Shown piece after piece: positions 21,580 through 39,936 of a stretch of 64,000 nt of DNA. The stretch is from an uncultured Acidimicrobiales bacterium. GTDB lineage: Bacteria; Actinomycetota; Acidimicrobiia; Acidimicrobiales; CAWCAL01. Location: assembly GCA_963695075.1 (NCBI GenBank), contig CAVOFR010000007.1, forward strand, positions 1,616,904 through 1,680,903. The letters run 5' to 3'. Under the pieces are notes generated by a model. The model ran no database searches and was not told the origin of the DNA. It saw only the letters and a program-made list of their open reading frames with translations. Within the stretch, counting starts at the first letter, position 1, and the number at the start of each line of letters is the position of its first letter. Position numbers and translations under genes: made by a program.

Positions 21580-21676
21580 CCGGCCCCTTTCGGTGGTTCG
21601 CCCCACTCTACCGGCCGGACCGGGGCGGCCCGAAGGGGACCGTCCGGGGGGCCGCCCGGCGGTCGAATGTCACATG

Positions 21677-24545: not shown

Positions 24546-26026
24546 TGCCCGATCTGGAGTTCACGTCTGCGTCGCGGCCCGAGCCGACGCCGCTCCCTCT
24601 CAGTGCGGACGAGCAGGCGGCGATCGCCCGGGCGTTCGAGGGCCCCTCGTCGCTCTTCTCCAACCTGAGCACCCTGCGGACGCGCCGGGTCGGCCTCGGT
24701 TACCAGATCGAGACCGGCGAGCCCGAGACGTTCGAGTGGTCGAGCGGCCAGACCGTCACCCAGGCGGTCGGTCCGTTGGCCTACGCGTCGCCCTCCGACC
24801 CGGTACCGCTGTCGGAGGTCGAAGAAGCGCTACTGGCCTGGGCGGCTCTGGGCCCCAACGGCGTCGCACTCGCCGACATCCCGGTCCAGGGCGGCCTGTC
24901 GGGAATGCTGTCGTGGGCGGGGCGCACGATCCCCGCTTCGTCGAATGACCTCTCCGTCGACCTTTTCGTCATCAACGACGAGGGCGTGTGGCGGTACCGG
25001 CCCGACCCCGAGCGGCTCGCACCCGTCGAGATAGCCGGGCCGGACGACTACTGGAAGATCCTCCACTGGTATCGCGAGAACCGCGTGAAGGTCGCCGATG
25101 CTCGTCCTGATGTCGGCTGGTTCAGCGCTCCCGAGGGCACGCACAGTGTCAACGCCATGGGACCGGGGCAGTACAACCTCAACCGTCCGGGTAGCACGTG
25201 GTTCCTCCCCGTCGGCGACCTCGGGCTCGAGTGGTACAACATGTTGCTCAGCTCCTATGAGTGGTCGGGCTTCTACCTGATGGATCCCGACACCCAGAAG
25301 GCGGCGGGCGTCGAGGAGTACATCCGGCCGGGCTTCCTGGAGGTCGGGTTCCCGATCCCGGTGTTCGACGACCTGGTCCGGCTTCTTCACGCCAGCCAGG
25401 TCGGGTGCGCGGTCCAGAATCTCCGGCTGGCGGCCGAGGCGCTCGGCCTGGGCGCCTGGCCGATGGGCTCGTACGCCGACGACCTGGTTCTCGGTGCCTA
25501 CCCGGATGTGGCCACCGGGCTCGGTTTCGATTTCCTCGAGCGTGACCCGGACCGGAACCCCGCGTTCACCACCACCTGTCTCGGCAAGCCCGGTGTGAAG
25601 GAGCCGGTCGTCGTACCCTCGCCTCAGTTCCCGACCGCGGCGGATGCGGTCACCTACGTCAAGTCGCTGCGGTACGGGCCCGGCGGTCATCTGAGTCGGG
25701 AGGCGAACTGGGCCGAACGGAACGAGGGTCCCTACCGACCCGAGGTCATGCGGGACATCCTCGAGCACCCGAAGAGCCACATCTCCGAGTGGGTCGAAAA
25801 GGCGGCCGTCGCCACCGTCGAGCACATCGTCGAGAAGTACGGATGCTGCCCGGCCTGGATCGACCCGGTGCGGGCCAAGTTCTCGGTCCAGGTACACCAC
25901 GTAGACGTGGAGTGGTACCGGCGGTTCACGGTGGGCGACGATCGACCGTACGCGGTCACCAAGGCCATTGCCGAGCACTTCGCGGACTGGCACCCCGACC
26001 GGCCCGATCCCACGGGAGGGGCGTGA
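24545..26026 (+). CDS. Large nitroreductase-superfamily-like protein (function unknown)
   Basis: 493 aa. The ATG overlaps the alpha-1 TGA. Nitroreductase-like segments LSEVEEALLAWAALGPNG and VGCAVQNLRLAAEALGLGAWPMG. Assignment is by motif only. Confidence 0.5.
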   Translation: MPDLEFTSASRPEPTPLPLSADEQAAIARAFEGPSSLFSNLSTLRTRRVGLGYQIETGEPETFEWSSGQTVTQAVGPLAYASPSDPVPLSEVEEALLAWAALGPNGVALADIPVQGGLSGMLSWAGRTIPASSNDLSVDLFVINDEGVWRYRPDPERLAPVEIAGPDDYWKILHWYRENRVKVADARPDVGWFSAPEGTHSVNAMGPGQYNLNRPGSTWFLPVGDLGLEWYNMLLSSYEWSGFYLMDPDTQKAAGVEEYIRPGFLEVGFPIPVFDDLVRLLHASQVGCAVQNLRLAAEALGLGAWPMGSYADDLVLGAYPDVATGLGFDFLERDPDRNPAFTTTCLGKPGVKEPVVVPSPQFPTAADAVTYVKSLRYGPGGHLSREANWAERNEGPYRPEVMRDILEHPKSHISEWVEKAAVATVEHIVEKYGCCPAWIDPVRAKFSVQVHHVDVEWYRRFTVGDDRPYAVTKAIAEHFADWHPDRPDPTGGA

Positions 26027-26556
26027 TGGAGACCGAGCTCGTGCGGGTGTTGGCCGCGTGGCTGCACGCCCTCGGCGTGGCGACCTACGTGGGAGGGGCG
26101 ATCATCATGGAGTTCGTCGTCGGCCCGGCCCAGAAGGCCATCCCGCCCGCCCAGGCGCAGGTCATGGGCAAGAAGGCGGCGGACCGGTTTCTCTGGTTCG
26201 CATGGGGATCGTTGGGTCTGATCGCCGTCTCGGGTCTACTGCGCCTGTTCTCCACCAACGCCGAGAAGCTGTTGTTCGGCTCCGCGGCGTTTGACGTCTC
26301 GCTCGGACGGACCTATCTCGTGAAGTCCGTCCTGTGGTTGGTGCTGGTGGTGAACGGCCTGATCATCACATTCGTGCTCAGGCCGAAGCTGTCGGCGCGG
26401 TCCGGGTCGGGTACGTCGGCCACCCAGGCTCAGTCCCATCAGCAGGACCAGGTCCGCGCCGCGAACCGGATACTGTGGCTGACCCGAGTCGACCTGGCGG
26501 TCGCCGTCGTGTTGGTGCTGCTCGGTTCGTCACTCGGGTTCGGTGGATTCCTCTGA
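26026..26556 (+). CDS. 4-TM integral membrane protein (DUF4149/CopD-like topology), paralog 1
   Basis: Internal ATG at 26026 of ORF 25789..26556, overlapping the previous TGA. Four hydrophobic stretches. N-terminus LAAWLHALGVATYVGGAIIMEFVVGPAQ matches the next gene. Confidence 0.6.
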   Translation: METELVRVLAAWLHALGVATYVGGAIIMEFVVGPAQKAIPPAQAQVMGKKAADRFLWFAWGSLGLIAVSGLLRLFSTNAEKLLFGSAAFDVSLGRTYLVKSVLWLVLVVNGLIITFVLRPKLSARSGSGTSATQAQSHQQDQVRAANRILWLTRVDLAVAVVLVLLGSSLGFGGFL

Positions 26557-26574: not shown

Positions 26575-27111
26575 TTGGACGCTTGGGCATCGGTACTGGC
26601 CGGATTCCACGGCCTCTGCTGGGCGACGTATGTCGGCGGCGCGCTCGTGATGGAGTTCGTCTGGCGTCCCGCACAACAGGACCTTCCCGGGGCGCAGACG
26701 GCCGTGGCCTGTCAGAGGATGGGCTTGCGCTATCGCTGGATCGCCCTGGCGTCGCTCCTCGGCGTCGCGGTGAGTGGGGTCGGGCTGCTGTTCGAGGCCG
26801 GCCACCTCGCTACCTCGGCACCCGTCGTGCGCGAATCGTTGTCGTTGTCGGCCGGCTACGGTCGCACGATGGCGGCGCTCGGTGTGGTCTGGGTCGCTCT
26901 GATGGCCAACCTGGCGTTGCTGACCTTCATCGCTCACCCCGGGCTCCACGTCCGCATGACGACCGATCTCACCGAGTCCGAGATGCGTCGGGCACGCGAA
27001 AAGGTCGGCCGGGCGATCCGCCGGATGGATCGGGTGCTGCGATTCGACCTGGGTCTCGCTCTGCTGGCCATGTTGTTGGGGGCATCGCTACCGTCGGGTG
27101 GCCTGCTGTGA
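26575..27111 (+). CDS. 4-TM integral membrane protein, paralog 2 (tandem duplicate of 26026..26556)
   Basis: LAGFHGLCWATYVGGALVMEFVWRPAQ aligns with paralog 1. TTG start after GACGAGG. Confidence 0.6.
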   Translation: MDAWASVLAGFHGLCWATYVGGALVMEFVWRPAQQDLPGAQTAVACQRMGLRYRWIALASLLGVAVSGVGLLFEAGHLATSAPVVRESLSLSAGYGRTMAALGVVWVALMANLALLTFIAHPGLHVRMTTDLTESEMRRAREKVGRAIRRMDRVLRFDLGLALLAMLLGASLPSGGLL

Positions 27112-27150: not shown

Positions 27151-28347
27151 ATGCCGAAGACCATCGCCATCACACCGTCGTGGTACTGGCCGACCGGCTG
27201 TCCGCGCGTGACCGGCGTGCCGCCGTTCCGACTCGACGAGATACTGGTCGAGAGGTGGGCGCGTCACCGGCCCGATGAGCCGGCGGTCGTCGACGAGCAT
27301 CAGCGCCTGTCTTTCTCGGAGCTGCTCGCCGTTGTCGACGAGGCGGCGGGGGCGTTGAGGGACCGGGCCGGCGAAGGCCCGGTGGCCTTCTGCGCCGGTC
27401 CGAGCGTCGAAGGGGCGGTGCTCCTGTTGGCCCTGGCGCGCTCCGGTGTGCGCGCCCACTTCCTCGATCCTTCGCTTCCGGCGAGCGCGATACCGGGAGC
27501 GACGATGGCCTGCGCGGACGAGGTCGGGTCGGCGACAGCAGCGGCCGCCGGGCTAGCGGTGTCACGGCTGGCTGACCTGTCGGGATCCGCGTCGACCGGA
27601 GCGTCGTCCCAGCCGGGCACCGGCCTGAACGACCCGGTCGTCGCCGTGGCCGGCGGCGATGACCTCGTGTGGCACTCCAACCGGTCGCTGCTCGCGGGTG
27701 CGGTGTCGCTCGGAACCTTCCTCGGAACCGGGTCCGGCAGGCCATGGCTCAGCACGGCCGCTCCATCCACGTGGGAGGGGATCTACGGTCTGGCCGTGCC
27801 GCTGGCCTCCGGTGTGACAGCGGTCCTGGCGCCACCGGGGGAGGCAGCGCTGGATCTCATGTCGCGCGAAGGAGTCGGCGCTTCCTGTTGGACACTCGAG
27901 GACGCCTTCGCGGCGACTCGCGAGGCCAAGAGGCAGGTCAAGGCGCTCAGGGGGGTTCAGGACTTCATGGTGCTCACCACCGGACGCCTGTTCGACCCCG
28001 ATCAGCGGCGACGGGTGGGGAAGCTGTTCGACACCGCGGCTCTGACCGTGTTCGGCCAGGCCGAGACGGGGCCGATCTTCGCTTCCCATGCCTCCTGGTA
28101 TCTCGACGAATCGGTGGGTATCCCGCTCTCGAACGCGTGGGTCGTCCCGGTCGATCCGCGATCGGGCAACCCGATCCCGACGCTGTGGGAGCTCGTCGAG
28201 TCGGCCATGGTCACCGTGTGGTCCCCTTCCCTGTTCGTCGGCTACGGGGGTGAGGCTCATCCGGAGCGGTTCCGCGACGGCAGGTTCTCGACGGGGATCA
28301 TCGCCAGCTCCGACGCCAACGGCATGATCTACCTGCTGCCCGACTGA
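27151..28347 (+). CDS. Adenylate-forming (ANL/acyl-CoA-synthetase) homolog, degenerate and lacking the C-terminal subdomain
   Basis: 398 aa. ANL-like HRPDEPAVVDEHQRLSFSELL, FGQAETGP (YGxTE-like) and FSTGIIASSDANGMIYLLPD, then a stop. No SGTTGxPKG P-loop; the corresponding stretch reads VAVAGGDDLVWHSN. Confidence 0.55.
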   Translation: MPKTIAITPSWYWPTGCPRVTGVPPFRLDEILVERWARHRPDEPAVVDEHQRLSFSELLAVVDEAAGALRDRAGEGPVAFCAGPSVEGAVLLLALARSGVRAHFLDPSLPASAIPGATMACADEVGSATAAAAGLAVSRLADLSGSASTGASSQPGTGLNDPVVAVAGGDDLVWHSNRSLLAGAVSLGTFLGTGSGRPWLSTAAPSTWEGIYGLAVPLASGVTAVLAPPGEAALDLMSREGVGASCWTLEDAFAATREAKRQVKALRGVQDFMVLTTGRLFDPDQRRRVGKLFDTAALTVFGQAETGPIFASHASWYLDESVGIPLSNAWVVPVDPRSGNPIPTLWELVESAMVTVWSPSLFVGYGGEAHPERFRDGRFSTGIIASSDANGMIYLLPD

Positions 28348-29484: not shown

Positions 29485-29547
29485 GCCCCTCGTCGCCGGT
29501 GGGACGGTCCCCGGGTCGTGGCCCGTTCCCCGTGTGACAAATGCCCG

Positions 29548-29576
29548 TTGCCCTGGCATGCAACCATCGTTATGAT
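29548..29576 (+). promoter_or_regulatory. Candidate promoter TTGCCC-17 nt-TATGAT upstream of alpha-2, overlapped by inverted repeat ATCGT-N10-ACGAT (29566..29585)
   Basis: Hexamers and spacing read directly. The repeat straddles the -10 element, and the site is 40 nt upstream of the GTG start at 29616. Confidence 0.45.
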
Positions 29577-29615
29577 CGCTACGATTTCTCATCTTGTCGA
29601 TGGAAGGGGCCCGTC

Positions 29616-32444
29616 GTGAGTGTGGCACCAACGTCCGCGCAGGAGACGCGTAGCGGCGAGCAGACGTACCGGTCGCGTTGGACGTGGGATTCGGTTGCGT
29701 ACGGAACCCATTGCGTGGACTGCTACCCCGGCAATTGCTCTTACAAGGTCTACGTGCGCGACGGCCGGGTCCTGCGCGAGGAGCCGGCGGCCCGTTTCGG
29801 AACTCTCGAGGAGGGTGTGCCCGACTTCAATCCGATGGGGTGCAACAAGGGTGCGGCGTGGAGCCAGCAGCTCTACGACGGGGATCGCCTGCTCCATCCG
29901 TTGCGCCGAGTGGGGGAGCGGGGCTCGGGCGAGTGGGAGCAGATCAGCTGGGACGAGGCCTGTACCGAGATCGCCGATGCAATGCTCGACGCCATCGAGG
30001 CCGGCGGCCCCGAGGACATCGCCCGGGAAGGTACGCCCGAGATCGCCACCGTGGTTCCGACGGACCGTTTCTTCAACGTCTTCGGCGGCCGGGCCATGGA
30101 CCTGCACGCCTCCTTCAACGACTTCTCCATCGGGCTGCACGAGACCTTCGGCAAGTTCTGTCCCGTGTCGTCGGCCGACGACTGGTTCAAGTCCGAGCTC
30201 ATCCTCATCTGGCACATGAATCCCGCGTACACGCGGATCCCGATCTACCACTTCATGAACGAAGCGCGGTACCACGGCGCCGAGGTCGTCTCGATCTCCC
30301 CGGACCTGAACGCGTCGCACATGCACGCCGACATCCACGTTCCGATGACGTCGGGCAACGACGTCCCGTTCGCGTTGGCCATGGTGCAGGTCATCCTCGA
30401 AGAGGGGATCGCGGACGAGACGTTCATGCGTGAGCAGACCGACCTGCCCCTGCTGGTACGCACCGACACGGCGCGCTATCTCCGCCAGACCGACGTCGAG
30501 GGCGAGGGAGGCGGCGCCCTCGAGGACCAGCTCTACCAGTGGGACCCCGATGCCGGCCTGATGAAGGCCGACCGGGGCGACCTCCACCTGCACGGCCGTG
30601 CGGTGGCCCTGGACGGCAAGTACGAAGTGACGCTGCACGACGGGACACAGGCCGAGGTGGAGCCGGTCCTGGCCCGCCTCCGTCGGATGATCGACGCCGA
30701 CTACACGCCGGAGAAACAGCAGGCGATCACCTCGGTGCATCCGGACGTGGTTCGCCGCATAGCTCGGAAAGCGGCCACCAGTCGCACCAACATCATGTTG
30801 GGCTGGAACTCGTGCAAGTACTTCCACGGGGACCTGATCGAGCGATCGATGTGTCTGCTTCTGGCGGTGATCGGCAGCTGGGGCAAGCACGGCACGGGGA
30901 TCCGGTCCTGGACCGCCGGGATGATGGACGGTCAGGGCATGATCATGATGAAGGAGGCGCCCGGGCTGGAGGGCACCGAGCAGATCGTCAGCGCGCGCGA
31001 CACCGCCGTCGAGGCGATGCAGGCCATGGACCCGACCCTCACCGAGGAATTGGCGTCGCGAGCTATGGGCCGAGCTCTCATCCAGGCCACCGAGGGCGCC
31101 GCCGGAGGGTTCGGCGGCCCTGCCAGCGGTTCCGAGCCGTCGGTCGAGGCCTTCTGGTGGTACAACCACGCCGGTTTCGCCGAACGATGGAACACCCCGG
31201 GTTGGGGTGACGATTCGCTGCCCCGGAGCTTCGACGACTACTACAACGAAGCCATCGAGAGCGGGTGGTGGACCGGGCTCGACGGCCCCAAGCCCGAGCA
31301 TCCGCCCAAGGTGCTGATCGAATGCGGCGGCAACATGATCCGTCGTACCCGCGGGGGCAGGACGATCCTGTTGGACAGCTTGTGGCCCAAGCTCGACCTG
31401 ATCGTCTCGATCGATTTCCGGATCAGCGGCACCGGGCTGCACTCCGACATCCTCCTGCCCGCGGCGCAGCACTACGAGAAACTCGGCTACCACATCCCGA
31501 CGCCGCACCAGATGGTGTTGACGTTCTCGGACAAGGCGGCCGAGCCGGCGGGCGAGGCTCTGTCCGAGTGGGAGATCTATCAGCGGATCCTGAAGAAGCT
31601 CTCCGAACGTGCCGCAGACCGCGGGATCGAGGAGTACAAGAGCCGCAACGGACAGAAGTTCAAGACGGCTGACCTGTGGGAGCGCTACACGCTCGACGGA
31701 TACATGGCCGACGAGGAGGCGATGGCCGACGAGCTGGTTCGGGACGCGGCGTACATCGGTGTCGTCGACGAGACCACGTCGCTCGAGACCATGCGCGAAG
31801 AGGGTCAGGTGCGTCTCACCGGCTGGGGCATGTCGTCCTTCGCTCTGGCGCAGGCGTCACCGTTGGAGAAGGACCGTACCCACGTGCCGTTCCGCAACCA
31901 CGTCGAGCTGGGGCACCCGTTCCCGACCTACTCGCGGCGGGCCCAGTTCTACATCGACCATCCGTGGTGGCTCGAAGCCGGGGAGGAACTGCCGGTTCAC
32001 AAACCGAACCCGAAGGCCGGGGGAGATCACCCCCTGCGGATGACCTCGGGCCACAACCGGTGGAGCATCCACGCCATGAATCAGGCGAACCCGGTGATCC
32101 TCCAGACCCATCGGGGTGAGCCGTTGGTCGAGATCAGTCCGGGTGACGCCCAGGCCCGAGGGGTCGCTGACAACGACATGATCCGGATCTGGAACGACAT
32201 CGCCGAGTTCCGGTGCCGAGCCAAGGTGATGCCGAGCGTCATGCCCGGCCAGATCATCTCCTACAACGGCTGGGACCCGCATCAGTACCAGAACTGGGAT
32301 GGAGCCAACGAGATCGAGGCGGGGATGGTCAAGTGGATCGCCTTTGCCGGCGGCTACGGGCACATCAGCTACTCGCAGGCCGAGTGGCAGCCGATCCCCA
32401 CAGATCGCGGGGTCCCGTGCGACTTCGAGAGAGTTGAGGGATGA
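29616..32444 (+). CDS. Molybdopterin oxidoreductase catalytic subunit, EBDH/S25DH-like, alpha-2; no Tat signal
   Basis: GTG 29616 after GGAAGGGG, within ORF 29541..32444. Motifs: THCVDCYPGNC..NPMGCNKG. Candidate Mo-ligand Asp169 in ASFNDFSIGLHETFG. 942 aa. Confidence 0.85.
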   Translation: MSVAPTSAQETRSGEQTYRSRWTWDSVAYGTHCVDCYPGNCSYKVYVRDGRVLREEPAARFGTLEEGVPDFNPMGCNKGAAWSQQLYDGDRLLHPLRRVGERGSGEWEQISWDEACTEIADAMLDAIEAGGPEDIAREGTPEIATVVPTDRFFNVFGGRAMDLHASFNDFSIGLHETFGKFCPVSSADDWFKSELILIWHMNPAYTRIPIYHFMNEARYHGAEVVSISPDLNASHMHADIHVPMTSGNDVPFALAMVQVILEEGIADETFMREQTDLPLLVRTDTARYLRQTDVEGEGGGALEDQLYQWDPDAGLMKADRGDLHLHGRAVALDGKYEVTLHDGTQAEVEPVLARLRRMIDADYTPEKQQAITSVHPDVVRRIARKAATSRTNIMLGWNSCKYFHGDLIERSMCLLLAVIGSWGKHGTGIRSWTAGMMDGQGMIMMKEAPGLEGTEQIVSARDTAVEAMQAMDPTLTEELASRAMGRALIQATEGAAGGFGGPASGSEPSVEAFWWYNHAGFAERWNTPGWGDDSLPRSFDDYYNEAIESGWWTGLDGPKPEHPPKVLIECGGNMIRRTRGGRTILLDSLWPKLDLIVSIDFRISGTGLHSDILLPAAQHYEKLGYHIPTPHQMVLTFSDKAAEPAGEALSEWEIYQRILKKLSERAADRGIEEYKSRNGQKFKTADLWERYTLDGYMADEEAMADELVRDAAYIGVVDETTSLETMREEGQVRLTGWGMSSFALAQASPLEKDRTHVPFRNHVELGHPFPTYSRRAQFYIDHPWWLEAGEELPVHKPNPKAGGDHPLRMTSGHNRWSIHAMNQANPVILQTHRGEPLVEISPGDAQARGVADNDMIRIWNDIAEFRCRAKVMPSVMPGQIISYNGWDPHQYQNWDGANEIEAGMVKWIAFAGGYGHISYSQAEWQPIPTDRGVPCDFERVEG

Positions 32445-32445: not shown

Positions 32446-33027
32446 ATGGAGCTGAAGCAATCCGATGGCGATCTCACATCGCCCGACGGCGACGGATGGT
32501 CCGAGGTGGAGGCCAGCGAGGTGACGTTGGCGCCGATACCCCTCGACGCCCAGCCCACCGAGTACATAAGGAACGCGTGGGCCGACCGTGGTTACGGGAC
32601 CGTCGGCCGGGCTTCGGTCGCGACAGCGCGCGCCGGCGATCAGGCTTTCGTGCGGATCGCCTGGGACGATCCGAGCGACGAGCACACCGAGTTCCATGAC
32701 GCGGCCGGCGTGTATTTCGGGGAGTCCGATTCCCCGGCCGCGACCATCGGAAGCGAATCGGCTCCGGTCGATCTGTGGTACTGGCAGGCGAACCTCGATG
32801 ACCCGAAGGGCCTGGTGGCCACCGGGCCGGGACGCTTCCGACCCAGCGAGTCCGAGGTCGGGGCGTCGGCGTCGCTGGAAGGCGGCCGCTGGACGGTCGT
32901 GTTGAGCGGCAGCCTCGATGGCCTCGGCTCCAACCTGGGTGTGGCCGTCTGGAACGGAACGAACGAGGAACGGGCGGGTATCGGCGCGGCGACCGCCGAC
33001 TGGGTCTCGCTGGAAATCGACCGATGA
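32446..33027 (+). CDS. EB_dh-type gamma subunit homolog (normally heme b binding); no signal peptide and no internal Met
   Basis: Internal ATG at 32446 of ORF 32299..33027. Family-typical VDLWYWQAN and VAVWNGTNEER. The position between alpha and beta supports the call. Confidence 0.65.
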   Translation: MELKQSDGDLTSPDGDGWSEVEASEVTLAPIPLDAQPTEYIRNAWADRGYGTVGRASVATARAGDQAFVRIAWDDPSDEHTEFHDAAGVYFGESDSPAATIGSESAPVDLWYWQANLDDPKGLVATGPGRFRPSESEVGASASLEGGRWTVVLSGSLDGLGSNLGVAVWNGTNEERAGIGAATADWVSLEIDR

Positions 33028-33040
33028 GGGAGGGCTCGAA

Positions 33041-34126
33041 ATGACCACGAGTGTGATGAAGCCGGAGTCGGGACCGATGCGACAGATCGCAATGGTGTTC
33101 GACCTGAACAAGTGCATGGGTTGCCAGGCGTGTTCGGTCGGTTGCAAGGTGCTGTGGACCCAGGAAGAGGGTGAAGAGCACCAGTGGTGGATGACCGTCA
33201 ACACCAAGCCCGGTCTGGGCACACCGAAGGGCTGGGAGGAGATGGGTGGCGGTGTCCACGGAGGCGAGCCGGTGCCGGGCCACCAGCCGACCCGTGCGGA
33301 GTTCGGCGGCGGCTGGGACTTCAACTATCAAGAGGTGTTCTACGGGGGCAAGGGCAACTCGGTACATCTCAAGCCCGAGGACAAGGGTGACGGAACGACC
33401 GAGTGGGGCATGAACTGGGACGAGGATCAAGGCGGCGGTGAGTACCCCAACGCCTACTACTTCTATCTTCCCCGCCTCTGCAACCACTGCACCCGGCCCG
33501 TGTGCGCCGAGGCGTGCCCCACGGGGGCCATGTACAAGCGCAGGGAGGACGGCATCGTCCTGCGCAACGAGGACGTGTGCCAGGGATCCCGGTTCTGCAT
33601 GGAGGCGTGCCCGTACAAGAAGATCTACTTCAACTACGCGCGGAACGTCGCCCAGCACTGCATCATGTGTTTCCCACGGCTCGAAGAGGGAGTCGCTCCG
33701 GTATGCGCCCGGCAGTGTCCGGGACGTCTCGCGTTCGTCGGGTACCTCGACGACGAGGAAGGGCCGATCCACAAGCTCGTGAACGAGTGGGGCGTGGCCC
33801 TGCCTCTCCACTCCGAGCACGGAACCGGTCCCAACATCTTCTACGTGCCACCGCTGGCGCCGCACCGGCTGAACGAGGACATGTCGATCGACTACGAGAC
33901 CCCGCGGATTCCGCCGGAGTACCTCGAGTCGCTCTTCGGGCCGAAGGTCCACACCGCCCTCGAGACGATCCAGTCCGAGCTCGAGACGGTACGCGGCGGC
34001 GGCTCTTCGGAGATCCTCGATACGCTCATCGTCTACCAATGGCAGGACCTGTTCGGGCCCTTCACGAACGATCCGGCTGATCTGGACCGGCCGCCGTCGA
34101 GCGTCCCGGTCGAGTTGAGGAGCTGA
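33041..34126 (+). CDS. Fe-S beta subunit (NarH/EbdB-like, four cluster motifs)
   Basis: CMGCQACSVGCK; CNHCTRPVCAEACP; CQGSRFCMEACPYKK; CIMCFPRLEEGVAPVCARQCPGR. At 361 aa it is EbdB/DdhB/SerB-sized rather than NarH-sized. Confidence 0.85.
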   Translation: MTTSVMKPESGPMRQIAMVFDLNKCMGCQACSVGCKVLWTQEEGEEHQWWMTVNTKPGLGTPKGWEEMGGGVHGGEPVPGHQPTRAEFGGGWDFNYQEVFYGGKGNSVHLKPEDKGDGTTEWGMNWDEDQGGGEYPNAYYFYLPRLCNHCTRPVCAEACPTGAMYKRREDGIVLRNEDVCQGSRFCMEACPYKKIYFNYARNVAQHCIMCFPRLEEGVAPVCARQCPGRLAFVGYLDDEEGPIHKLVNEWGVALPLHSEHGTGPNIFYVPPLAPHRLNEDMSIDYETPRIPPEYLESLFGPKVHTALETIQSELETVRGGGSSEILDTLIVYQWQDLFGPFTNDPADLDRPPSSVPVELRS

Positions 34127-34135
34127 GGTACCGAC

Positions 34136-34795
34136 ATGTTCGCCTATTCCCTGAGCGGCCTCGAGATCTCCGACGACGCCGGCGGCGTCACCGAGGTCGA
34201 GGAGAACGAGATCACAGCCCGCAGCGCCGTCTACCAGGTGCTGGGCCGGATCTTCACCGCGCCCGACACCGAGCACTACGAGATGGCCGGCAACGGGCAG
34301 TGGGTCAAGGAGCTCACCGAGGCGGCGGCTCTGCTCGACTTCGAGTGGGACATCGGTGAGTTCGCGCTGCCCGACGAGGCCGACAAGGCGGCCCACGTCG
34401 CCGAGTACGACCGGCTCTTCCTGGTGGCGAGTGGCGATGGAAAGCGCATCTGGGGCGGTGCGCGGGCCGATGACCGCGATCAGATGTTGACCGAGCTGGG
34501 CCGTTCCTATGAGTACTACGGCCTCGGTGGGGCCGGCGAGGACGTGCCGCTCGACCATCTCACCGCCGAGCTCGACTTCATGCAGTTCCTGACGTTCAAG
34601 GAGGCCGCTGCTTCGTCGCCCCGACTCGGCCGATCGTTCCGGCGGGCGCAGGTCGACTTCCTGGCCAAGCAGCTCGATTGGGTGACGGCGCTCGCCGCCG
34701 AGGCCAGGGACGACGACCCGTCGGTCTTCTGGGCGTGGGCCCTCGATCGGCTCGAGTCATTCCTCGAAGCGGACACCGAGGCCGCCGCCGGGTAG
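34136..34795 (+). CDS. TorD/NarJ-family maturation chaperone (delta subunit)
   Basis: 219 aa, acidic. SAVYQVLGRIFTAPD..EYDRLF..DHLTAELDFMQFL is typical of the family. It is the last gene of the alpha-gamma-beta-delta operon. Confidence 0.7.
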   Translation: MFAYSLSGLEISDDAGGVTEVEENEITARSAVYQVLGRIFTAPDTEHYEMAGNGQWVKELTEAAALLDFEWDIGEFALPDEADKAAHVAEYDRLFLVASGDGKRIWGGARADDRDQMLTELGRSYEYYGLGGAGEDVPLDHLTAELDFMQFLTFKEAAASSPRLGRSFRRAQVDFLAKQLDWVTALAAEARDDDPSVFWAWALDRLESFLEADTEAAAG

Positions 34796-36157: not shown

Positions 36158-38887
36158 CTACCGGTGTGTCGTCGGCTCGACCTCCACGCGGAACAGGCGG
36201 TCGGACTGCTGGGGCTGCCATTGGAGGTCGGAGTAGGCGAGGTGACCGTATCCCCCGGCGAAGTGCAGCGACTTCACCATGCCGGGTTCGACCCAGGTCA
36301 CATCCTTCCACTCGGGGTACAGGTACTGCTCCCATGACCCGTAGAGGATCACCTGGCCGGGCCGGACCGACGACGTCAGCCGAGCGCGCACCGCCAGCTC
36401 GCCGACGTCGTTGAAGACCCGGACCGTGTCGCCATCGGCGACCTGGCGGGCGTCGGCATCGTCGGTGTTGAGGTGGATCGTCGGCCCGCCCCGGGTCGTT
36501 TCGAGCATCATCCGGCTCGAGGTGTTGGTGGCGTGGATGCTCCAGCGGGGATGACCGCCGGTGAGCTGGAGTGGGTAGTCGCCGCCGGCCGGCGGTGGGT
36601 CCTTGTGGACGGGCAGGTGCTCGTCGGCTTCGAAGAACCACGGGTGGTCGAGGTAGAACTGAGCGCGGCCGGTCAGCGTCGGGAAGGGCATGCCTTCCAG
36701 GTGGTGTCGATAGGCGACGAACGGTCCGTCGTCGTCGAGGTCACCGGCACAGACGCCGGCCATGATGCGGGGGAGCTCGGTGGGTCGCACCCAGCCGGTC
36801 TCGCGCAAGCTGCTCACCGATGTCCCCGGCGGCACGCTCCCGGCCAGAGCGCTGTCACGCAGCACCTCGTCGATGGCCGCCTCCTCGGTTCGGACGGCGC
36901 CGCCCATCGTGACGGTGTCGAACACCCCGGAGTAGCTGCGCTTGCCGCCCCGGGAGTCGTCGAAGGTGTCGAGCCCACGCTCTGCCGCGCGCCGGGTGAT
37001 CGCCTCGGCCAGCCCCAGGAAGATCTGCCAGTCCGATCGCGATTCGCCCTCGGGCTCGACCGCCTTGTCGGCGAGCATCCGTTCCCACGAGTGCGAGTTG
37101 GCGGCGTGGAGGTCCAACCGCTCGTGCTCGCAGGCGACCGGCAGCACCAGGTCCGCGTACAGGCCGACCGTGCTCATCTTCCAGTCGAGTACGGCGATCA
37201 TGTCGAGCTTGGGCCACAAGTGGCGGAGCAGTTGGCGCTGGCCGCCCCGGGTTCGGCGCAGTGTGTTCGTACCGGCCTGGAGCAGCACGCGAGGGGTCAT
37301 CTGCGGCTTGGGGCGCACCAACCCGCTCCACCAGCCGCGGGACTGCGATTCGCGGATGTACTCGTCGTAGGGGCGGGGGCTGTCGCCCCAGCCTTCGTGG
37401 TCCCAGATCTCGTCGAAGCCGCAGTGGTACCAGAAGAAGAAGGCGGGTGGGGTCGAGGGCATGTTCGGCGCGTTGGCCTGCATCATCTGGAGCACGGCGC
37501 GACCGTCGGTCATGGCCGGGTCCGACGCCTTCATGGCATCGAGGTAGGCGTCGAGGCCGGCGACGGCGGCCTCGGCCGACTCGATTCCCGCGCCGCCCTT
37601 CAGCAGTCCCAGCACCTCCCCGTCGAGAAGGGCGATGATGTAGGTGTCGAGCCCACGGCCGGCCTGTCCCCAGTTGCCGGTGAGTGCGAGCACCAGGTCC
37701 ATGGCGCGTTCCATCAGGTCACCGTGATGGTGCTTGCAGCTGCCCAGCCCGTTGTACAGCTTGGTTCGGCCCGAGGAGACCATCCGGGCCAGCTCGCGGA
37801 TCGTGGCCGGCGCCACGTCGCAGATCTGCGACGCGTCCTCGGGCGAGTAGCCGGCCAGGCGCTCGCGCAGCAGTTCGAACACGGGTGTGACCTCGACCCG
37901 GGTGCCGTCCAGGAGCGACACCTCCCACCGGCCCTCCAACGCGACGTCGGACGGCGCCTTCGGATCATCGAGCCGGGTCTGATCGGAGGGAGTCAGGGAC
38001 CCGCCCCGCCAAACGTAGAACCGGTCGGCGCGCCCGTCCGGCTCGACGTCCTCGGAGCGGAGGAACCGCCGGGTGTCGGTACGCACCAGGAGTGGAAGGT
38101 CGGTCTGGGATCGGACGAAGTCGAGGTCGGCCAGGCCCTCGTCGACGATCACCCGGCACATCGAGAGCGAGAGGGCGGCGTCGGAGCCCGGCCGGACCGG
38201 CACGTGCATGTCGGTGTGCATGGCCGACGGGCTGTAGTCGGGGGCGATCAACACGACCTTGGCGCCGTGGTAGCGGGCTTCGGGCAGGTAGTGGAAGTAG
38301 GGGATGCGCGTGAAGGCGGGGTTGCAGTTCCACACGAGGATCACATCGGCTCGGAACGTGTCGTCGGCGCTCGAACCGCCCAGCAGGCTGCCGAACGTCA
38401 TCCAGTGCCCGAGGTGCACGTCGCTCACCGTCGAGTTGCTGTCGAACGTCACCGAGTCGAGTGCCGCGCCGAGACGGGCCCGGCCCAGGCCACCCGCCAC
38501 GCCCGACTCGGGCCCGGGGTCCATGATGATCGAGTGCGCTCCCTCGCCCTCGAGTCCGTCGATGACCGCGTCCGCGAGGCTGTCGAGAGCATCTTCCCAG
38601 CCGATGCGTTCCCACTCACCCGAGCCCCGCTCACCCACCCGCCGCAACGGATGGAGTAGCCGCTCGTCGCCCTGGGCCTGTGTGTGCCATGCACCGCCCT
38701 TCTGACAACCGAGCGGGTTCATGTCGGGCACACCGTCGTAGGACGGCAGACCCCCCGACTGTTCCTGGTAGACGACCTTCCCGTCCGCCGCGAAGAGGCG
38801 GTACGAGCAGTTGGCGATGCAGTTGCCGCAATGCGACGCCCAGGTCACTTGATCCCAGGTCCAGCGGTCCGCTGGGGTGGTGGTCAT
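36158..38887 (-). CDS. Molybdopterin oxidoreductase catalytic subunit, EBDH/S25DH-like, alpha-3; no Tat signal
   Basis: ATG 38887 preceded by GAGGAG, within ORF 36158..39010. Motifs: SHCGNCIANC..NPLGCQKG. Candidate Mo-ligand Asp156 in STVSDVHLGHWMTFG. 909 aa. Confidence 0.85.
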   Translation of the reverse strand: MTTTPADRWTWDQVTWASHCGNCIANCSYRLFAADGKVVYQEQSGGLPSYDGVPDMNPLGCQKGGAWHTQAQGDERLLHPLRRVGERGSGEWERIGWEDALDSLADAVIDGLEGEGAHSIIMDPGPESGVAGGLGRARLGAALDSVTFDSNSTVSDVHLGHWMTFGSLLGGSSADDTFRADVILVWNCNPAFTRIPYFHYLPEARYHGAKVVLIAPDYSPSAMHTDMHVPVRPGSDAALSLSMCRVIVDEGLADLDFVRSQTDLPLLVRTDTRRFLRSEDVEPDGRADRFYVWRGGSLTPSDQTRLDDPKAPSDVALEGRWEVSLLDGTRVEVTPVFELLRERLAGYSPEDASQICDVAPATIRELARMVSSGRTKLYNGLGSCKHHHGDLMERAMDLVLALTGNWGQAGRGLDTYIIALLDGEVLGLLKGGAGIESAEAAVAGLDAYLDAMKASDPAMTDGRAVLQMMQANAPNMPSTPPAFFFWYHCGFDEIWDHEGWGDSPRPYDEYIRESQSRGWWSGLVRPKPQMTPRVLLQAGTNTLRRTRGGQRQLLRHLWPKLDMIAVLDWKMSTVGLYADLVLPVACEHERLDLHAANSHSWERMLADKAVEPEGESRSDWQIFLGLAEAITRRAAERGLDTFDDSRGGKRSYSGVFDTVTMGGAVRTEEAAIDEVLRDSALAGSVPPGTSVSSLRETGWVRPTELPRIMAGVCAGDLDDDGPFVAYRHHLEGMPFPTLTGRAQFYLDHPWFFEADEHLPVHKDPPPAGGDYPLQLTGGHPRWSIHATNTSSRMMLETTRGGPTIHLNTDDADARQVADGDTVRVFNDVGELAVRARLTSSVRPGQVILYGSWEQYLYPEWKDVTWVEPGMVKSLHFAGGYGHLAYSDLQWQPQQSDRLFRVEVEPTTHR

Positions 38888-38952
38888 CGCGCTTCTCCTC
38901 GGTCGGGTGACGGTTGGCAGGGCCATGTCAGGGACTGCAATATGATCGGTCC

Positions 38953-39936
38953 GTGAGAGCTGTGGTGACGGGTGCGTACGGCCATGTGGGTGCCAACCTC
39001 GTGCGCGCACTGTTGGCGGCCGACTGGGAGGTGCGGGCGGCCGACCGACGGAGGACCGACGCGCTCGTCGGGCTCGACGTCGAACATGTCGATGTCGATG
39101 TGCTCGATCCGGGGAGTCTTCGCGCCGCGTTCGCAGATGCCGACGTGGTGTTCCACCTGGCCGCGGTCATCTCGATCGTCGGCGATCCAACGGGCGTCGT
39201 CTGGCGGGTGAACGTCGAGGGTCCGGGTAATGCGGCCGAGGCCGCACTCGCCTGCGATGTCGGCCGCTTCGTGCACTGCAGCTCGGTCCACGCGTTCGAC
39301 CTGGAGAAGTGCGGTCCGTCGATCGACGAAACCGCGGCGAGGGCGGTCGGGGATCACGCGCCGGCCTACGATCGTTCGAAGAACGCGGGGGAGAGCTCGG
39401 TACGCAGGGTCATCGAGAAGGGCCTCGACGCTGTCATCGTCAATCCGACCGGCGTGATCGGCCCTCACGACTACGGCCCGTCGCGTATGGGCGAAACGCT
39501 CGTTCGACTGGCCGAGCGCAAGATCCCGGTGAATGTGCCCGGTGGGTTCGACTTCGTCGATGTACGCGATCTCGTCACGGGAATGGTCTCCGCCGCCGAG
39601 CGGGGCAGAACCGGCGAGAACTACCTCCTGTCGGGCACACGGCTCTCGATCAAGGAGCTCGGTCGCCTCGTCGCCGACTCCACCGGCGTGCGGCCACCGC
39701 GAATCGATCTGCCGATGAGGCTGGTGGCGCCGCTCGCCCCCCTCGTGCTCAGGCTCACCCCCGACGATCGGACACCCCTGTTCACGCCCGACGCCATGCA
39801 CGCCTTGCGCTATTCCCCCGACGCCAGTCACCACCTGGCGGCCAGGGAGCTCGGCTACGTCGCCCGCCCGATCCACGAGACCGTGGCCGACACGCTCTCC
39901 TGGTTCGATGAGAGGGCTCTGTCGGGCCGCGGTTGA
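38953..39936 (+). CDS. NAD-dependent epimerase/dehydratase-family (extended SDR) protein
   Basis: GTG 38953 within ORF 38914..39936. VRAVVTGAYGHVGANLVRALL Rossmann motif and PAYDRSK (YxxxK). Confidence 0.75.
   Translation: MRAVVTGAYGHVGANLVRALLAADWEVRAADRRRTDALVGLDVEHVDVDVLDPGSLRAAFADADVVFHLAAVISIVGDPTGVVWRVNVEGPGNAAEAALACDVGRFVHCSSVHAFDLEKCGPSIDETAARAVGDHAPAYDRSKNAGESSVRRVIEKGLDAVIVNPTGVIGPHDYGPSRMGETLVRLAERKIPVNVPGGFDFVDVRDLVTGMVSAAERGRTGENYLLSGTRLSIKELGRLVADSTGVRPPRIDLPMRLVAPLAPLVLRLTPDDRTPLFTPDAMHALRYSPDASHHLAARELGYVARPIHETVADTLSWFDERALSGRG

What the first reader, a model, noticed from the sequence alone, without database searches (positions are those of the whole stretch)
32446..34795. 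Non-canonical alpha-gamma-beta-delta order, and a gamma subunit that cannot keep the Met heme ligand
Seen in the sequence:
- The EB_dh-like gamma gene sits between alpha-2 and beta. Characterised operons that I recall are ABCD (ebd, pcr) or ABDC (ser, ddh).
- The 193-aa gamma has no signal peptide; its N-terminus is MELKQSDGDLTSPDGDGW.
- It has no methionine other than the initiator, and only two lysines (K4 and DDPKG).
- Where relatives that I recall have ..MG..W.WKA it reads TIGSESAPVDLWYWQAN.
- Its C-terminal ERAGIGAATADW stretch has no Lys.

Established knowledge: EbdC-type gamma subunits bind heme b through Met/Lys axial ligation.

Inference: this gamma is either heme-free (a structural or adaptor subunit) or uses other ligands, for example the His residues in DEHTEFHD. 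That fits a cytoplasmic enzyme which must hand electrons to a different acceptor such as ferredoxin, ETF or a flavoprotein.
Basis: partly seen in the sequence, partly recalled or inferred. Interest (0 to 1): 0.7.

Follow-up and report, generated by a model that had tools for sequence, protein, structure and literature searches.

The report
Heme-ligand-less gamma subunit, cytoplasmic molybdenum hydroxylase
A molybdenum enzyme of the ethylbenzene/steroid-C25 dehydrogenase type has no export signal, and its third subunit has lost both residues that normally hold the heme; the same is true of a large uncultured bacterial lineage, so these enzymes probably exchange electrons by a route not yet described.

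Summary
Window 32446-33027 encodes a 193-aa EB_dh-fold protein that sits between a molybdopterin alpha subunit and the Fe-S beta and delta genes.

- **Ligands lost.** Against both solved relatives, the heme b ligands fall on Ile101 and Gly180 (EbdC Met108/Lys201; Kuenenia NXR-C Met155/Lys305).
- **A clade, not a one-off.** 66 distinct gammas from Acidimicrobiia, Chloroflexota and a few Gammaproteobacteria MAGs all have Gly or Ala at the Lys column and a variable Met column. They also lack a His, an Arg and a ~10-residue loop that heme-type relatives conserve. No His, Met, Lys or Cys is conserved in them.
- **Derived state.** On a beta-subunit tree the clade is monophyletic and nested among Met/Lys lineages.
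- **Cytoplasmic.** Its alphas lack Tat signals. Proteobacterial relatives ordered gamma-beta-alpha keep Tat, Met and Lys.
- **Still functional.** Gamma keeps the EbdC fold (TM 0.84) and is under purifying selection (dN/dS 0.21).
- **Clade-specific partners.** A module of a nitroreductase-fold protein, two CopD-like membrane proteins and an AMP-binding-like protein accompanies only this clade.

Best reading: a heme-free scaffold or adaptor gamma, with electrons exchanged at the beta [3Fe-4S] cluster. The His-ligand alternative is rejected. Heme absence is inferred from sequence, not measured. I rate it a new variant of a known kind.

The parts
32446..33027 (+). Gamma subunit, 193 aa. EB_dh/EbdC fold, with both heme b axial-ligand positions substituted (Ile101, Gly180).
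   Evidence: ORF and sequence. Pfam EB_dh 40.8 bits. EbdC and NXR-C alignments. AF2 pLDDT 91.9 and Foldseek 2ivf_C TM 0.84. dN/dS 0.21.
29541..32444 (+). Alpha-2, the Mo-bisPGD catalytic subunit. The longest ORF is 967 aa; the likely start is the GTG near 29607, which gives about 945 aa as called in L085. No Tat signal.
   Evidence: Pfam. EbdA 2ivf_A 675 bits with the Mo-ligand Asp223 conserved. N-terminus without an RR motif. TIGR03479 scores 842 bits, below its cut-off of 984.75.
33041..34126 (+). Beta subunit, 361 aa. Four Cys motifs. The FS4 motif CQGSRFC lacks the middle Cys, which is the [3Fe-4S] type.
   Evidence: EbdB 2ivf_B 433 bits. Motifs. Pfam Fer4_11.
34136..34795 (+). Delta, a NarJ/EbdD-type assembly chaperone, 219 aa.
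   Evidence: Pfam Nitrate_red_del. TIGR03482 scores 82 bits, below its cut-off.
21762..24545 (+). Alpha-1, a paralogous catalytic subunit (927 aa, 46% identical to alpha-2). No Tat signal. In most relatives it lies directly after delta.
24545..26026 (+). X493, a conserved 'hypothetical' protein with a nitroreductase-superfamily (FMN) fold. It is the first gene of the accessory module specific to the heme-ligand-less clade.
   Evidence: Homologues 57-88% identical and all unnamed. AF2 pLDDT 80, then Foldseek 3hoi E 1.2e-4. Found in 42 loci.
26026..26556 (+). M1, a CopD-like membrane protein (hydropathy scan: three segments; four helices by eye, not formally predicted) with an invariant His14 in the first hydrophobic segment.
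   Evidence: Pfam CopD 35 bits. Hydropathy scan. Conservation. Co-occurrence.
26575..27111 (+). M2, a paralogue of M1 and also CopD-like.
27151..28347 (+). AMPl, an AMP-binding (adenylate-forming) N-terminal domain protein of 398 aa with no C-terminal subdomain. It is the last gene of the accessory module.
21055..21606 (-). 2x[4Fe-4S] ferredoxin with a Cys-rich tail, divergent from alpha-1. It is a candidate redox partner. A ferredoxin directly follows delta in several related loci.
   Evidence: Loci L001, L007, L009, L011.
36158..39010 (-). Alpha-3, a third paralogous catalytic subunit with no gamma or beta of its own.
42004..44736 (-). Alpha-4, a fourth paralogous catalytic subunit. The real start is MTATENSY; the mechanical ORF runs on to 45366.

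Best explanation
The operon encodes a cytoplasmic member of the ethylbenzene-dehydrogenase / steroid-C25-dehydrogenase branch of type II DMSO-reductase-family molybdoenzymes.

- **Shared module.** One beta/gamma/delta set probably serves four paralogous catalytic alphas. This is inferred by analogy with Sterolibacterium.
- **Intact wire.** The chain Mo-bisPGD -> FS0 -> FS1-3 -> FS4 ([3Fe-4S]) appears complete at sequence level.
- **Gamma without heme.** Gamma keeps the EbdC beta-sandwich but has lost the Met/Lys-ligated high-potential heme b. It now acts as a heme-free scaffold or docking subunit on beta.
- **Electron exchange at FS4.** Electrons therefore leave, or enter, at FS4 and pass directly to a separate partner rather than through a gamma heme to a periplasmic cytochrome c.
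- **Candidate partners.** In decreasing genomic support: the clade-specific module (nitroreductase-fold X493 plus the CopD-like membrane pair M1/M2), a 2x[4Fe-4S] ferredoxin, and ETF.

Shown here: homology, loss of the ligands and other pocket positions, absence of Tat, purifying selection, and clade-specific synteny. Inferred: actual heme absence, the partner's identity, the direction of electron flow, and the substrate. The substrate is probably a sterol or isoprenoid side chain, judging from neighbouring Ltp2/ChsH2-type, thiolase, CoA-ligase, 3beta-HSD-like and phytoene-desaturase-like genes.
For: 1. **Ligand columns.** Two solved structures give the same columns: EbdC M108/K201 and NXR-C M155/K305 face I101/G180 (PMC8840923; PMC8387239).
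2. **Clade-wide loss.** In 66 distinct gammas the Lys column is G (35) or A (31), never K. The Met column is L/I/M/V/F.
3. **Further pocket losses.** EbdC-H64 (H in 15/15 Met/Lys sequences) becomes S/H/T. R166 (15/15) becomes G in 55/66. A loop of about 10 residues (EbdC ~171-181) is deleted in 66/66.
4. **No substitute ligand.** No His, Met, Lys or Cys is conserved at 90% or more in the clade. Only Y40 and Y50 are, and these are shared with the proteobacterial Met/Lys gammas.
5. **Met/Lys is the family norm.** An exhaustive phmmer search gave 213 representatives at E <= 1e-3. Of about 128 that could be aligned, 93 are Met+Lys. About 20 have neither Lys nor a basic residue at that column, and they include 11 of the 12 best-scoring alignable hits.
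6. **Single derived loss.** On a beta-subunit NJ tree rooted on EbdB, the 63 no-Lys loci are monophyletic and nested within Met/Lys lineages.
7. **Correlation with export.** Alphas beside no-Lys gammas have no twin-arginine motif. Eight of the ten complete alphas in the proteobacterial gamma-beta-alpha loci with Met/Lys gammas show SRRNFLKAG-type Tat signals in the printed N-terminal stretch.
8. **Fold kept and gene constrained.** AF2 pLDDT is 91.9 and Foldseek gives 2ivf_C at E 3.4e-17, TM 0.84. dN/dS is 0.21 against the closest relative.
9. **Catalytic core intact.** The Mo-ligand Asp is kept in all four alphas. All beta Cys motifs are present, with a [3Fe-4S]-type FS4.
10. **Co-variation in beta.** The non-Cys residue inside the FS4 motif is aromatic or His in 14/14 Met/Lys loci, but D/S/A/G in 50/63 no-Lys loci.
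11. **Clade-specific module.** X493-M1-M2-AMPl occurs in 42 no-Lys loci and in 0 of 12 Met/Lys loci with equal flanks. X493 has an FMN-nitroreductase fold.
Against: - No spectroscopic or metal data exist. Heme absence rests on sequence alone.
- 14 of the 66 distinct clade gammas still have Met at the first ligand column, so a five-coordinate or otherwise ligated heme cannot be excluded for them.
- Two Tat-less Chloroflexota loci (L067, L072) keep Met+Lys. A cytoplasmic location therefore does not by itself force heme loss.
- Thermodynamics is unresolved. From general knowledge, hydroxylating an unactivated C-H with water needs a fairly high-potential acceptor, and a 2x[4Fe-4S] ferredoxin would be a poor one. 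That would point either to a membrane or flavin route or to reductive operation.
- The partner assignment rests on synteny only.
- Sharing of one beta/gamma set among four alphas is an analogy, not a demonstration.
Confidence: 0.65

Rival explanations
1. Gamma still binds heme b, but with different ligation. Possibilities are a five-coordinate heme, Tyr or carboxylate ligation, a ligand supplied by beta, or lineage-specific His such as H80/H84.
For: The fold is fully retained. 14 of 66 clade members keep Met at the first column. Y40 and Y50 are conserved. This sequence has two His in DEHTEFHD.
Against: H80 and H84 are not conserved in relatives. Y40 and Y50 are equally conserved in the proteobacterial Met/Lys gammas, so they are not replacements. 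Besides both ligands, a conserved His, a conserved Arg and a ~10-residue loop were also lost. The Lys-loop region is the least confident part of the model (pLDDT 68).
Confidence: 0.1
2. The former heme pocket of gamma has been re-used to bind a different hydrophobic ligand next to FS4. One option is a quinone, giving direct FS4-to-quinone transfer as in the heme-less DmsC/PsrC anchors. Another is the sterol or isoprenoid substrate itself, making gamma a carrier or delivery subunit.
For: The fold is retained under purifying selection. Hydrophobic residues (I/L/V/F) replace the Met ligand. The wider fold group also contains non-heme ligand binders (my own knowledge, not tested). The gene context is lipid and sterol catabolism.
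Against: No binding motif could be identified. The loop deletion and the R166G change suggest the pocket shrank rather than being remodelled. No experimental hint exists.
Confidence: 0.15
3. The complex works as a reductase, not a hydroxylase or dehydrogenase. A low-potential cytoplasmic donor (the ferredoxin) feeds electrons through FS4 to Mo. The high-potential Met/Lys heme would have been an obstacle to this and was discarded.
For: A 2x[4Fe-4S] ferredoxin gene lies next to alpha-1 here, and one directly follows delta in L001, L007, L009 and L011. The cited EbDH paper describes its Met/Lys heme b as high-potential and suited to electron exit to cytochrome c (PMC8840923). None of the four alphas keeps EbdA His192.
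Against: The nearest characterised relatives (EbdA 675 bits; JGI labels some homologues 'steroid C-25 hydroxylase gamma') are hydroxylases. Neighbouring genes point to oxidative side-chain catabolism. Most loci carry the X493/M1/M2 module rather than a ferredoxin.
Confidence: 0.12
4. Gamma is a decaying relic with no function, and the enzyme is effectively alpha-beta.
For: Gamma is the least conserved core subunit: 35-58% identity across loci, against 63-88% for beta within the no-Lys clade.
Against: dN/dS is 0.21. 32 positions are conserved at 90% or more across three phyla. Length and position are conserved in more than 60 loci. The gene is translationally coupled to alpha-2. The fold prediction is confident.
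Confidence: 0.03

Closest known systems
Ethylbenzene dehydrogenase EbdABC(D) of Aromatoleum aromaticum (PDB 2IVF)
   Same: - The alpha, beta, gamma and delta subunits are all homologous: 675, 433 and 63 bits for alpha, beta and gamma against the 2IVF chains, and delta matches the EbdD model.
- The Mo-ligand Asp, the FS0 His/Cys motif and the four beta cluster motifs (with a [3Fe-4S] FS4) are shared.
- Gamma has the same fold (TM 0.84).
   Different: - EbdA carries a Tat signal and the enzyme is periplasmic.
- EbdC ligates heme b through Met108 and Lys201. Here these are Ile and Gly, and a His, an Arg and a loop are also lost.
- Gene order is ABCD there and A-C-B-D here.
- All four proteins score below the NCBIfam type II cut-offs.
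Steroid C25 / C26 dehydrogenases (S25DH1-4, S26DH1/2) of Sterolibacterium denitrificans
   Same: - Several alpha paralogues outnumber the beta/gamma sets.
- Gamma precedes beta in the operon (gamma-beta-alpha).
- The context is sterol side-chain catabolism, with phytoene-desaturase-like flavoproteins nearby (PMC7411048, PMC6153880, PMC11061730).
   Different: - These enzymes are periplasmic by Tat signal, and S26DH1 contains 0.89 heme b per enzyme.
- The proteobacterial relatives found here keep Met, Lys and Tat.
- The window's clade has none of these features and carries an extra X493/M1/M2/AMPl module.
Kuenenia stuttgartiensis nitrite oxidoreductase NXR-C (PDB 7B04)
   Same: The EB_dh fold (TM 0.74) sits on a type II beta subunit next to FS4.
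   Different: NXR-C binds heme b through Met155/Lys305. Its substrate and cellular compartment (the anammoxosome) differ.
Heme-less third subunits of other DMSO-reductase-family enzymes (DmsC, PsrC/NrfD type)
   Same: This is a functional analogy only, from my own knowledge: a third subunit without heme, where the last Fe-S cluster of the beta subunit exchanges electrons directly with the acceptor or donor.
   Different: The fold is unrelated. Those are integral membrane proteins, whereas gamma here is a soluble beta-sandwich; its sequence shows no long hydrophobic stretch, though it was not run through the hydropathy scan.

Membership tests
EB_dh / type II DMSO-reductase gamma ('heme b subunit'; PF09459, TIGR03477) | Sequence homology to the family model | tested here: inconclusive
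   Pfam EB_dh scores 40.8 bits, above its cut-off of 33.3. NCBIfam TIGR03477 scores only 91.4 bits against a curated cut-off of 169.85, and EbdC NF042980 scores 63.5 against 400.
EB_dh / type II DMSO-reductase gamma ('heme b subunit'; PF09459, TIGR03477) | EbdC-type beta-sandwich fold | tested here: met
   AF2 pLDDT 91.9. Foldseek gives 2ivf_C at E 3.4e-17 (TM 0.84/0.77) and 7b04_C at TM 0.75.
EB_dh / type II DMSO-reductase gamma ('heme b subunit'; PF09459, TIGR03477) | Met axial heme ligand (EbdC M108 / NXR-C M155) | tested here: not met
   The residue is Ile101 here. Across the clade the column is L/I/M/V/F.
EB_dh / type II DMSO-reductase gamma ('heme b subunit'; PF09459, TIGR03477) | Lys axial heme ligand (EbdC K201 / NXR-C K305) | tested here: not met
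   The residue is Gly180 here. It is G or A in 66/66 clade members and K in 15/15 heme-type relatives.
EB_dh / type II DMSO-reductase gamma ('heme b subunit'; PF09459, TIGR03477) | Stoichiometric heme b in the purified protein | not testable with these tools
   This needs UV-vis and pyridine hemochrome measurements on the purified complex.
EBDH-like (type II DMSOR) molybdenum hydroxylases | Alpha subunit with an Asp ligand to Mo and an N-terminal His/Cys FS0 motif | tested here: met
   EbdA D223 aligns to Asp in all four alphas. The FS0 motif is H-x3-C-x4-C in alpha-2 (HCVDCYPGNC) and H-x3-C-x3-C in alpha-1, alpha-3 and alpha-4 (e.g. HCLNCLATC).
EBDH-like (type II DMSOR) molybdenum hydroxylases | Beta subunit with three [4Fe-4S] motifs and one [3Fe-4S] motif | tested here: met
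   Four Cys groups align with EbdB. The FS4 motif CQGSRFC lacks the middle Cys.
EBDH-like (type II DMSOR) molybdenum hydroxylases | Tat signal on alpha and a periplasmic location | tested here: not met
   All four alphas start about 25-35 residues before FS0 and have no RRxF[LI]K motif. Related proteobacterial alphas have one.
EBDH-like (type II DMSOR) molybdenum hydroxylases | Dedicated NarJ/EbdD-type chaperone in the operon | tested here: met
   Delta matches Pfam Nitrate_red_del, and TIGR03482 at 82 bits, which is below that model's cut-off.
EBDH-like (type II DMSOR) molybdenum hydroxylases | Water-dependent C-H hydroxylation activity | not testable with these tools
   Only gene context suggests a sterol or isoprenoid substrate.
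Heme-less DmsC/PsrC (NrfD-type) anchors | Integral membrane protein with a quinone site next to FS4 | not tested
   Gamma was not run through a transmembrane or hydropathy scan. Its sequence shows no long hydrophobic stretch and the model is a soluble beta-sandwich. The comparison is a functional analogy only.

The most novel reading that the evidence does not exclude
The heme-ligand-less gamma marks a previously unrecognised, phylogenetically broad class of cytoplasmic, oxygen-independent C-H hydroxylases in Acidimicrobiia, Chloroflexota and some Gammaproteobacteria. In this class the periplasmic heme b / cytochrome c exit would be replaced by a new electron route. That route would run from FS4 to a dedicated flavoprotein (X493), and perhaps on to a CopD-like membrane pair (M1/M2, with an invariant His in its first hydrophobic segment that could hold a b-type heme) linking to the quinone pool. 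Mostly aerobic or facultative uncultured bacteria in soils, sludge and sponges could then hydroxylate sterol or isoprenoid side chains with water inside the cell.
Probability: 0.25. Interest if true: 0.85.

Novelty: new variant of a known kind. Interest (0 to 1): 0.66.

Why it matters
Every characterised EBDH-like hydroxylase (EbDH, S25DH, S26DH, and p-cymene dehydrogenase as listed in PMC10100899) is described as a Tat-exported periplasmic enzyme. The reviews consulted say these enzymes hand electrons from a Met/Lys heme b to a high-potential cytochrome c (PMC6153880, PMC8840923).

A large, constrained, monophyletic clade with neither the export signal nor the heme ligands means that model does not cover a substantial part of the family.

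- **Testable question.** What accepts, or donates, electrons at FS4 in the cytoplasm, and how is the thermodynamic demand of C-H hydroxylation met there? The candidate genes are named here.
- **Annotation.** These proteins are currently labelled 'heme b subunit', and the conserved partners are labelled 'hypothetical protein'.
- **Ecology.** It bears on estimates of oxygen-independent sterol or isoprenoid turnover by abundant uncultured Acidimicrobiia and Chloroflexota.
- **Biotechnology.** S25DH is used to make 25-hydroxyvitamin D3. A cytoplasmic, heme-independent version could be easier to express.

Tried and rejected
- **His residues of DEHTEFHD as replacement ligands.** Rejected because they are not conserved.
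- **Composition bias as the explanation for few Lys and Met.** It accounts for the low overall counts in a 67% G+C genome. It does not account for clade-wide substitution of exactly the ligand columns, together with the loss of a conserved His, an Arg and a loop.
- **Misalignment of the ligand columns.** Rejected. Two independent structure-anchored alignments (EbdC and NXR-C) agree, and no Lys or Met lies within about 10 residues.
- **Pseudogene or relic.** Rejected on dN/dS 0.21 and conservation across phyla.
- **A second gamma or beta in the window for the other alphas.** None found by tblastn.
- **Exact-sequence lookup of the window's gamma.** Not on record, so context came from relatives.
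- **Literature.** Six full-text searches found no description of a Tat-less or heme-ligand-less EBDH/S25DH-like clade. This covers only the library held.
- **M1 and X493 against PDB sequences.** No hit for M1, and only E 0.02 for X493.
- **M1 against cytochrome b561 in Pfam.** E 0.17, not significant. The idea that M1/M2 is a b-type cytochrome remains a lead from recalled similarity to HemJ-type proteins, not a result.


Full report
**1. What is in the window**

The window is 65-70% G+C. Between 29541 and 34795 on the + strand lie four tightly packed genes:
- Alpha-2, 29541-32444 (longest ORF 967 aa; probable GTG start near 29607).
- Gamma, 32446-33027 (193 aa). Its ATG lies one base after the alpha stop and is preceded by GAGGGA.
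- Beta, 33041-34126 (361 aa), preceded by GGAGGG.
- Delta, 34136-34795 (219 aa).

Pfam assigns Molybdopterin + Molydop_binding, EB_dh (40.8 bits against a cut-off of 33.3), Fer4_11 and Nitrate_red_del respectively.

Gamma begins MELKQSDGDLTSPDGDGW. It has only the initiator Met, two Lys (K4, K121), two His (H80, H84) and no Cys.

**2. Is gamma an EbdC homologue, and where are the ligand columns?**

phmmer against all PDB chains finds only two relatives: EbdC (2IVF_C, E 3.5e-16, residues 14-191 against 17-212) and Kuenenia NXR-C (7B04_C, E 7.5e-7).

EbdC and NXR-C bind heme b through Met and Lys (PMC8840923). In NXR-C the ligands are Met155 and Lys305, 'as in EBDH' (PMC8387239). Counting along the printed alignments gives:
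- EbdC M108 and NXR-C M155 both face Ile101 of the query (AATIGS).
- EbdC K201 and NXR-C K305 both face Gly180 (ERAGIGA).

An AlphaFold2 model built on 32 homologues is confident (pLDDT 91.9, pTM 0.90). Its weakest stretch is 171-180, the former Lys loop. Foldseek matches 2ivf_C at E 3.4e-17 (TM 0.84/0.77), then NXR-C at TM 0.75, and more weakly the cytochrome domain of cellobiose dehydrogenase.

So the fold is kept and both ligands are gone.

**3. It is a clade, not an accident**

A search of 5.8 billion proteins returned 52 relatives of about 195 aa. A scan of GTDB species genomes returned 80 loci. They come from Acidimicrobiia and other Actinomycetota, Chloroflexota (Dehalococcoidia, Anaerolineae), and some proteobacterial MAGs.

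I aligned all gammas with EbdC and compared the two groups column by column.

*Loci ordered alpha-gamma-beta-delta (66 distinct gammas):*
- The Lys column is Gly (35) or Ala (31), never Lys.
- The Met column is L (27), I (23), M (14), V or F.

*Proteobacterial loci ordered gamma-beta-alpha, plus L004, L067 and L072 (15 distinct gammas):*
- All keep Met and Lys.

The no-Lys group has also lost other positions that the Met/Lys group conserves:
- EbdC H64: H in 15/15 of the Met/Lys group, but S/H/T in the no-Lys group.
- EbdC R166: R in 15/15, but G in 55/66.
- A loop of about 10 residues (EbdC ~171-181): deleted in 66/66.
- EbdC position 135: I in 13/15 of the Met/Lys group (Phe in EbdC itself), replaced by an invariant Pro.

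No His, Met, Lys or Cys is conserved at 90% or more in the no-Lys group. The only possible ligand-type residues, Y40 and Y50, are equally conserved in the proteobacterial Met/Lys gammas.

An exhaustive phmmer search of 1.84 billion cluster representatives gave 213 hits at E <= 1e-3. Of about 128 that could be aligned, 93 have Met+Lys. About 20 have neither Lys nor another basic residue at that column, and they include 11 of the 12 best-scoring alignable hits. Met/Lys is therefore the family norm.

A neighbour-joining tree of the beta subunits, rooted on EbdB, places all 63 no-Lys loci in one clade. That clade is nested inside Met/Lys-bearing lineages. The loss is thus a single derived event.

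Gamma is not decaying. Against the closest relative (L085) its dN/dS is 0.21, compared with 0.08 for beta, 0.13 for alpha-2 and 0.23 for delta.

**4. Cytoplasmic location**

A gamma without a signal peptide proves nothing, because Met/Lys gammas of exported relatives lack one too. The alphas are what matter.
- All four alphas in the window, and every alpha beside a no-Lys gamma, begin only about 25-35 residues before the FS0 motif (HCVDCYPGNC or HCLNCLATC). None has a plausible twin-arginine motif in its coding N-terminus; the motif scan flagged three chance matches in upstream stop-to-stop sequence.
- Eight of the ten complete alphas in the proteobacterial gamma-beta-alpha loci show classical Tat signals in the printed N-terminal stretch (SRRNFLKAGALAA, TRRSFLKAG, DRRGFLKSA and similar).
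- Two Chloroflexota loci are intermediate. L072's operon alpha is Tat-less yet its gamma keeps Met and Lys; L067 groups with it on the beta tree, but its operon alpha is off the contig. Relocation to the cytoplasm therefore probably preceded heme loss and does not by itself force it.

**5. The rest of the enzyme is intact but divergent**

- Alpha-2 aligns to EbdA over its full length (675 bits). The Mo-ligand Asp223 is conserved, and this holds in all four alphas. EbdA His192 is not conserved in any of them.
- Beta aligns to EbdB (433 bits) with all four Cys groups. The FS4 motif (CQGSRFC) lacks the middle Cys, as in [3Fe-4S] FS4 clusters.
- The non-Cys residue in that motif is aromatic or His in 14/14 Met/Lys loci, but D/S/A/G in 50/63 no-Lys loci. 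This co-variation in beta is consistent with loss of the heme neighbour. The structural reading of it is an inference.
- All four proteins score below the curated NCBIfam cut-offs for the type II families: alpha 829-842 against 984.75, beta 457 against 480.7, gamma 91 against 169.85, delta 82 against 152.3.

**6. Gene order and context**

The order alpha-gamma-beta-delta is conserved in the loci whose contigs include the upstream alpha and the downstream delta, usually followed by a second alpha. Gamma-before-beta is not unique, however. Sterolibacterium S26DH1 is encoded gamma-beta-alpha (PMC7411048), and so are 12 of the 13 proteobacterial Met/Lys loci that have beta and alpha on the contig.

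The window holds four alpha paralogues that are 43-52% identical:
- 21762-24545 (+)
- 29541-32444 (+)
- 36158-39010 (-)
- 42004-44736 (-)

It holds only one gamma, one beta and one delta. This recalls the eight alphas that outnumber the beta/gamma sets in Sterolibacterium (PMC6153880).

A four-gene module is conserved immediately after alpha-1. It occurs in 42 no-Lys loci and in none of 12 Met/Lys loci with equal flanks. Its members are:
- X493 (24545-26026).
- M1 (26026-26556).
- M2 (26575-27111).
- AMPl (27151-28347).

What is known about these proteins:
- X493 belongs to a family of unnamed proteins that are 57-88% identical. Its predicted fold (pLDDT 80) matches FMN nitroreductases (3hoi, E 1.2e-4) and, more weakly, ThcOx-type oxidases.
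- M1 and M2 are paralogous CopD-like membrane proteins; a hydropathy scan finds three hydrophobic segments in each. M1 has an invariant His in the first segment.
- Several Acidimicrobiia loci lack the module and instead have a small ferredoxin directly after delta. The window has a 2x[4Fe-4S] ferredoxin divergent from alpha-1.

The surrounding genes are:
- ETF.
- At least seven phytoene-desaturase / amine-oxidase-fold flavoproteins. This is the fold the stigmasterol delta-24-desaturase paper cites (phytoene desaturase, limonene dehydrogenase; PMC11061730).
- Ltp2/ChsH2-type proteins and thiolases.
- CoA ligases, an enoyl-CoA hydratase, an acyl-CoA dehydrogenase and a 3beta-HSD-like protein.

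Together these point to sterol or isoprenoid side-chain catabolism.

**7. Mechanism**

*Shown:*
- The catalytic and Fe-S wire is complete at sequence level.
- Gamma is a constrained EbdC-fold protein with no recognisable heme ligation.
- The enzyme is not Tat-exported.
- A clade-specific accessory module exists.

*Inferred:*
- Gamma is heme-free and acts as a scaffold or docking subunit.
- Electrons are exchanged at FS4 with an external partner.

The heme-less DmsC/PsrC anchors of other family members offer a functional precedent, from my own knowledge, for direct exchange between FS4 and an acceptor.

The direction of flow and the partner are open. A low-potential ferredoxin is a poor acceptor for C-H hydroxylation. 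Either the flavoprotein/membrane module provides the exit, or some members run reductively.

**8. Literature**

Reviews and primary papers describe every EBDH-like hydroxylase as periplasmic and heme b-containing. Six full-text searches found no description of this clade. That is absence from the library held, not proof of novelty.

**9. Verdict**

- The heme-free reading is the best supported, with confidence of about 0.65 for the full statement. Confidence is higher for 'no Met/Lys heme' and for 'cytoplasmic'.
- The His alternative is rejected.
- The 'non-canonical order' claim is qualified.
- This is a new variant of a known enzyme kind. It is of real interest to molybdoenzyme and steroid-degradation specialists, and biochemical confirmation is still needed.

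Noticed in passing
window 24545-28347 (+); same module in 42 related loci, e.g. L024 13061-16540: A conserved four-gene module lies directly after alpha-1. It comprises a 493-aa nitroreductase-fold 'hypothetical' protein, two paralogous CopD-like membrane proteins and a 398-aa AMP-binding N-domain protein. It occurs only with heme-ligand-less gammas (0 of 12 Met/Lys loci). Its function is unknown. It may be the electron exit route, or a substrate-activation step.
   Followed up: partly
window 21762-24545, 29541-32444, 36158-39010 (-), 42004-44736 (-): Four Tat-less molybdopterin alpha paralogues (43-52% identical) lie within 24 kb, but there is only one gamma/beta/delta set. All four keep the Mo-ligand Asp and none keeps EbdA His192.
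   Followed up: partly
window 6833-11277, 46404-51665, 60403-62115: At least seven amine-oxidase / phytoene-desaturase-fold flavoprotein genes, plus ETF beta/alpha at 3289-5143. This is the fold group that the stigmasterol delta-24-desaturase paper cites (phytoene desaturase, limonene dehydrogenase), which suggests an oxygen-independent isoprenoid or sterol side-chain pathway.
   Followed up: no
window 34846-36108 (-): A radical SAM + SPASM protein with a C-terminal SEC-C metal-binding motif lies immediately downstream of delta on the opposite strand. A homologue was seen in only one related locus. A sulfotransferase-family gene sits at 353-1831.
   Followed up: no
window 21055-21606 (-): A 2x[4Fe-4S] ferredoxin with an unusual Cys-rich, zinc-ribbon-like C-terminal extension lies divergent from alpha-1. 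In loci L001, L007, L009 and L011 a ferredoxin follows delta directly.
   Followed up: partly
L072 4947-10393 and L067 (Chloroflexota MAGs): These are intermediate forms. L072's operon alpha is Tat-less and has a different FS0 motif (C-x4-C-x3-C, no His), yet gamma still has Met and Lys; L067 keeps Met/Lys too, but its operon alpha is off the contig. They could help order the events of relocation and heme loss.
   Followed up: partly
beta subunits, FS4 motif (window 33041-34126, residues 180-191): The non-Cys residue inside the [3Fe-4S] motif C-x2-X-x2-C is aromatic or His in all 14 Met/Lys-type enzymes, but mostly Asp, Ser or Ala in the heme-ligand-less clade.
   Followed up: partly
window 11323-12672 (+): A DUF222-domain protein sits inside the catabolic island. 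From my own knowledge, this domain is usually linked to HNH-endonuclease / 13E12-type mobile repeats in Actinomycetota.
   Followed up: no
L085 (GCA_024449835.1, contig JAANTA013465007.1): The closest relative of the operon (gamma 76%, beta 90% identical) sits on an 11.7-kb contig of an assembly whose contig numbers run into the millions. That may be a host genome or a very large metagenome carrying a symbiont or contaminant. The window's proteins are also markedly acidic.
   Followed up: no
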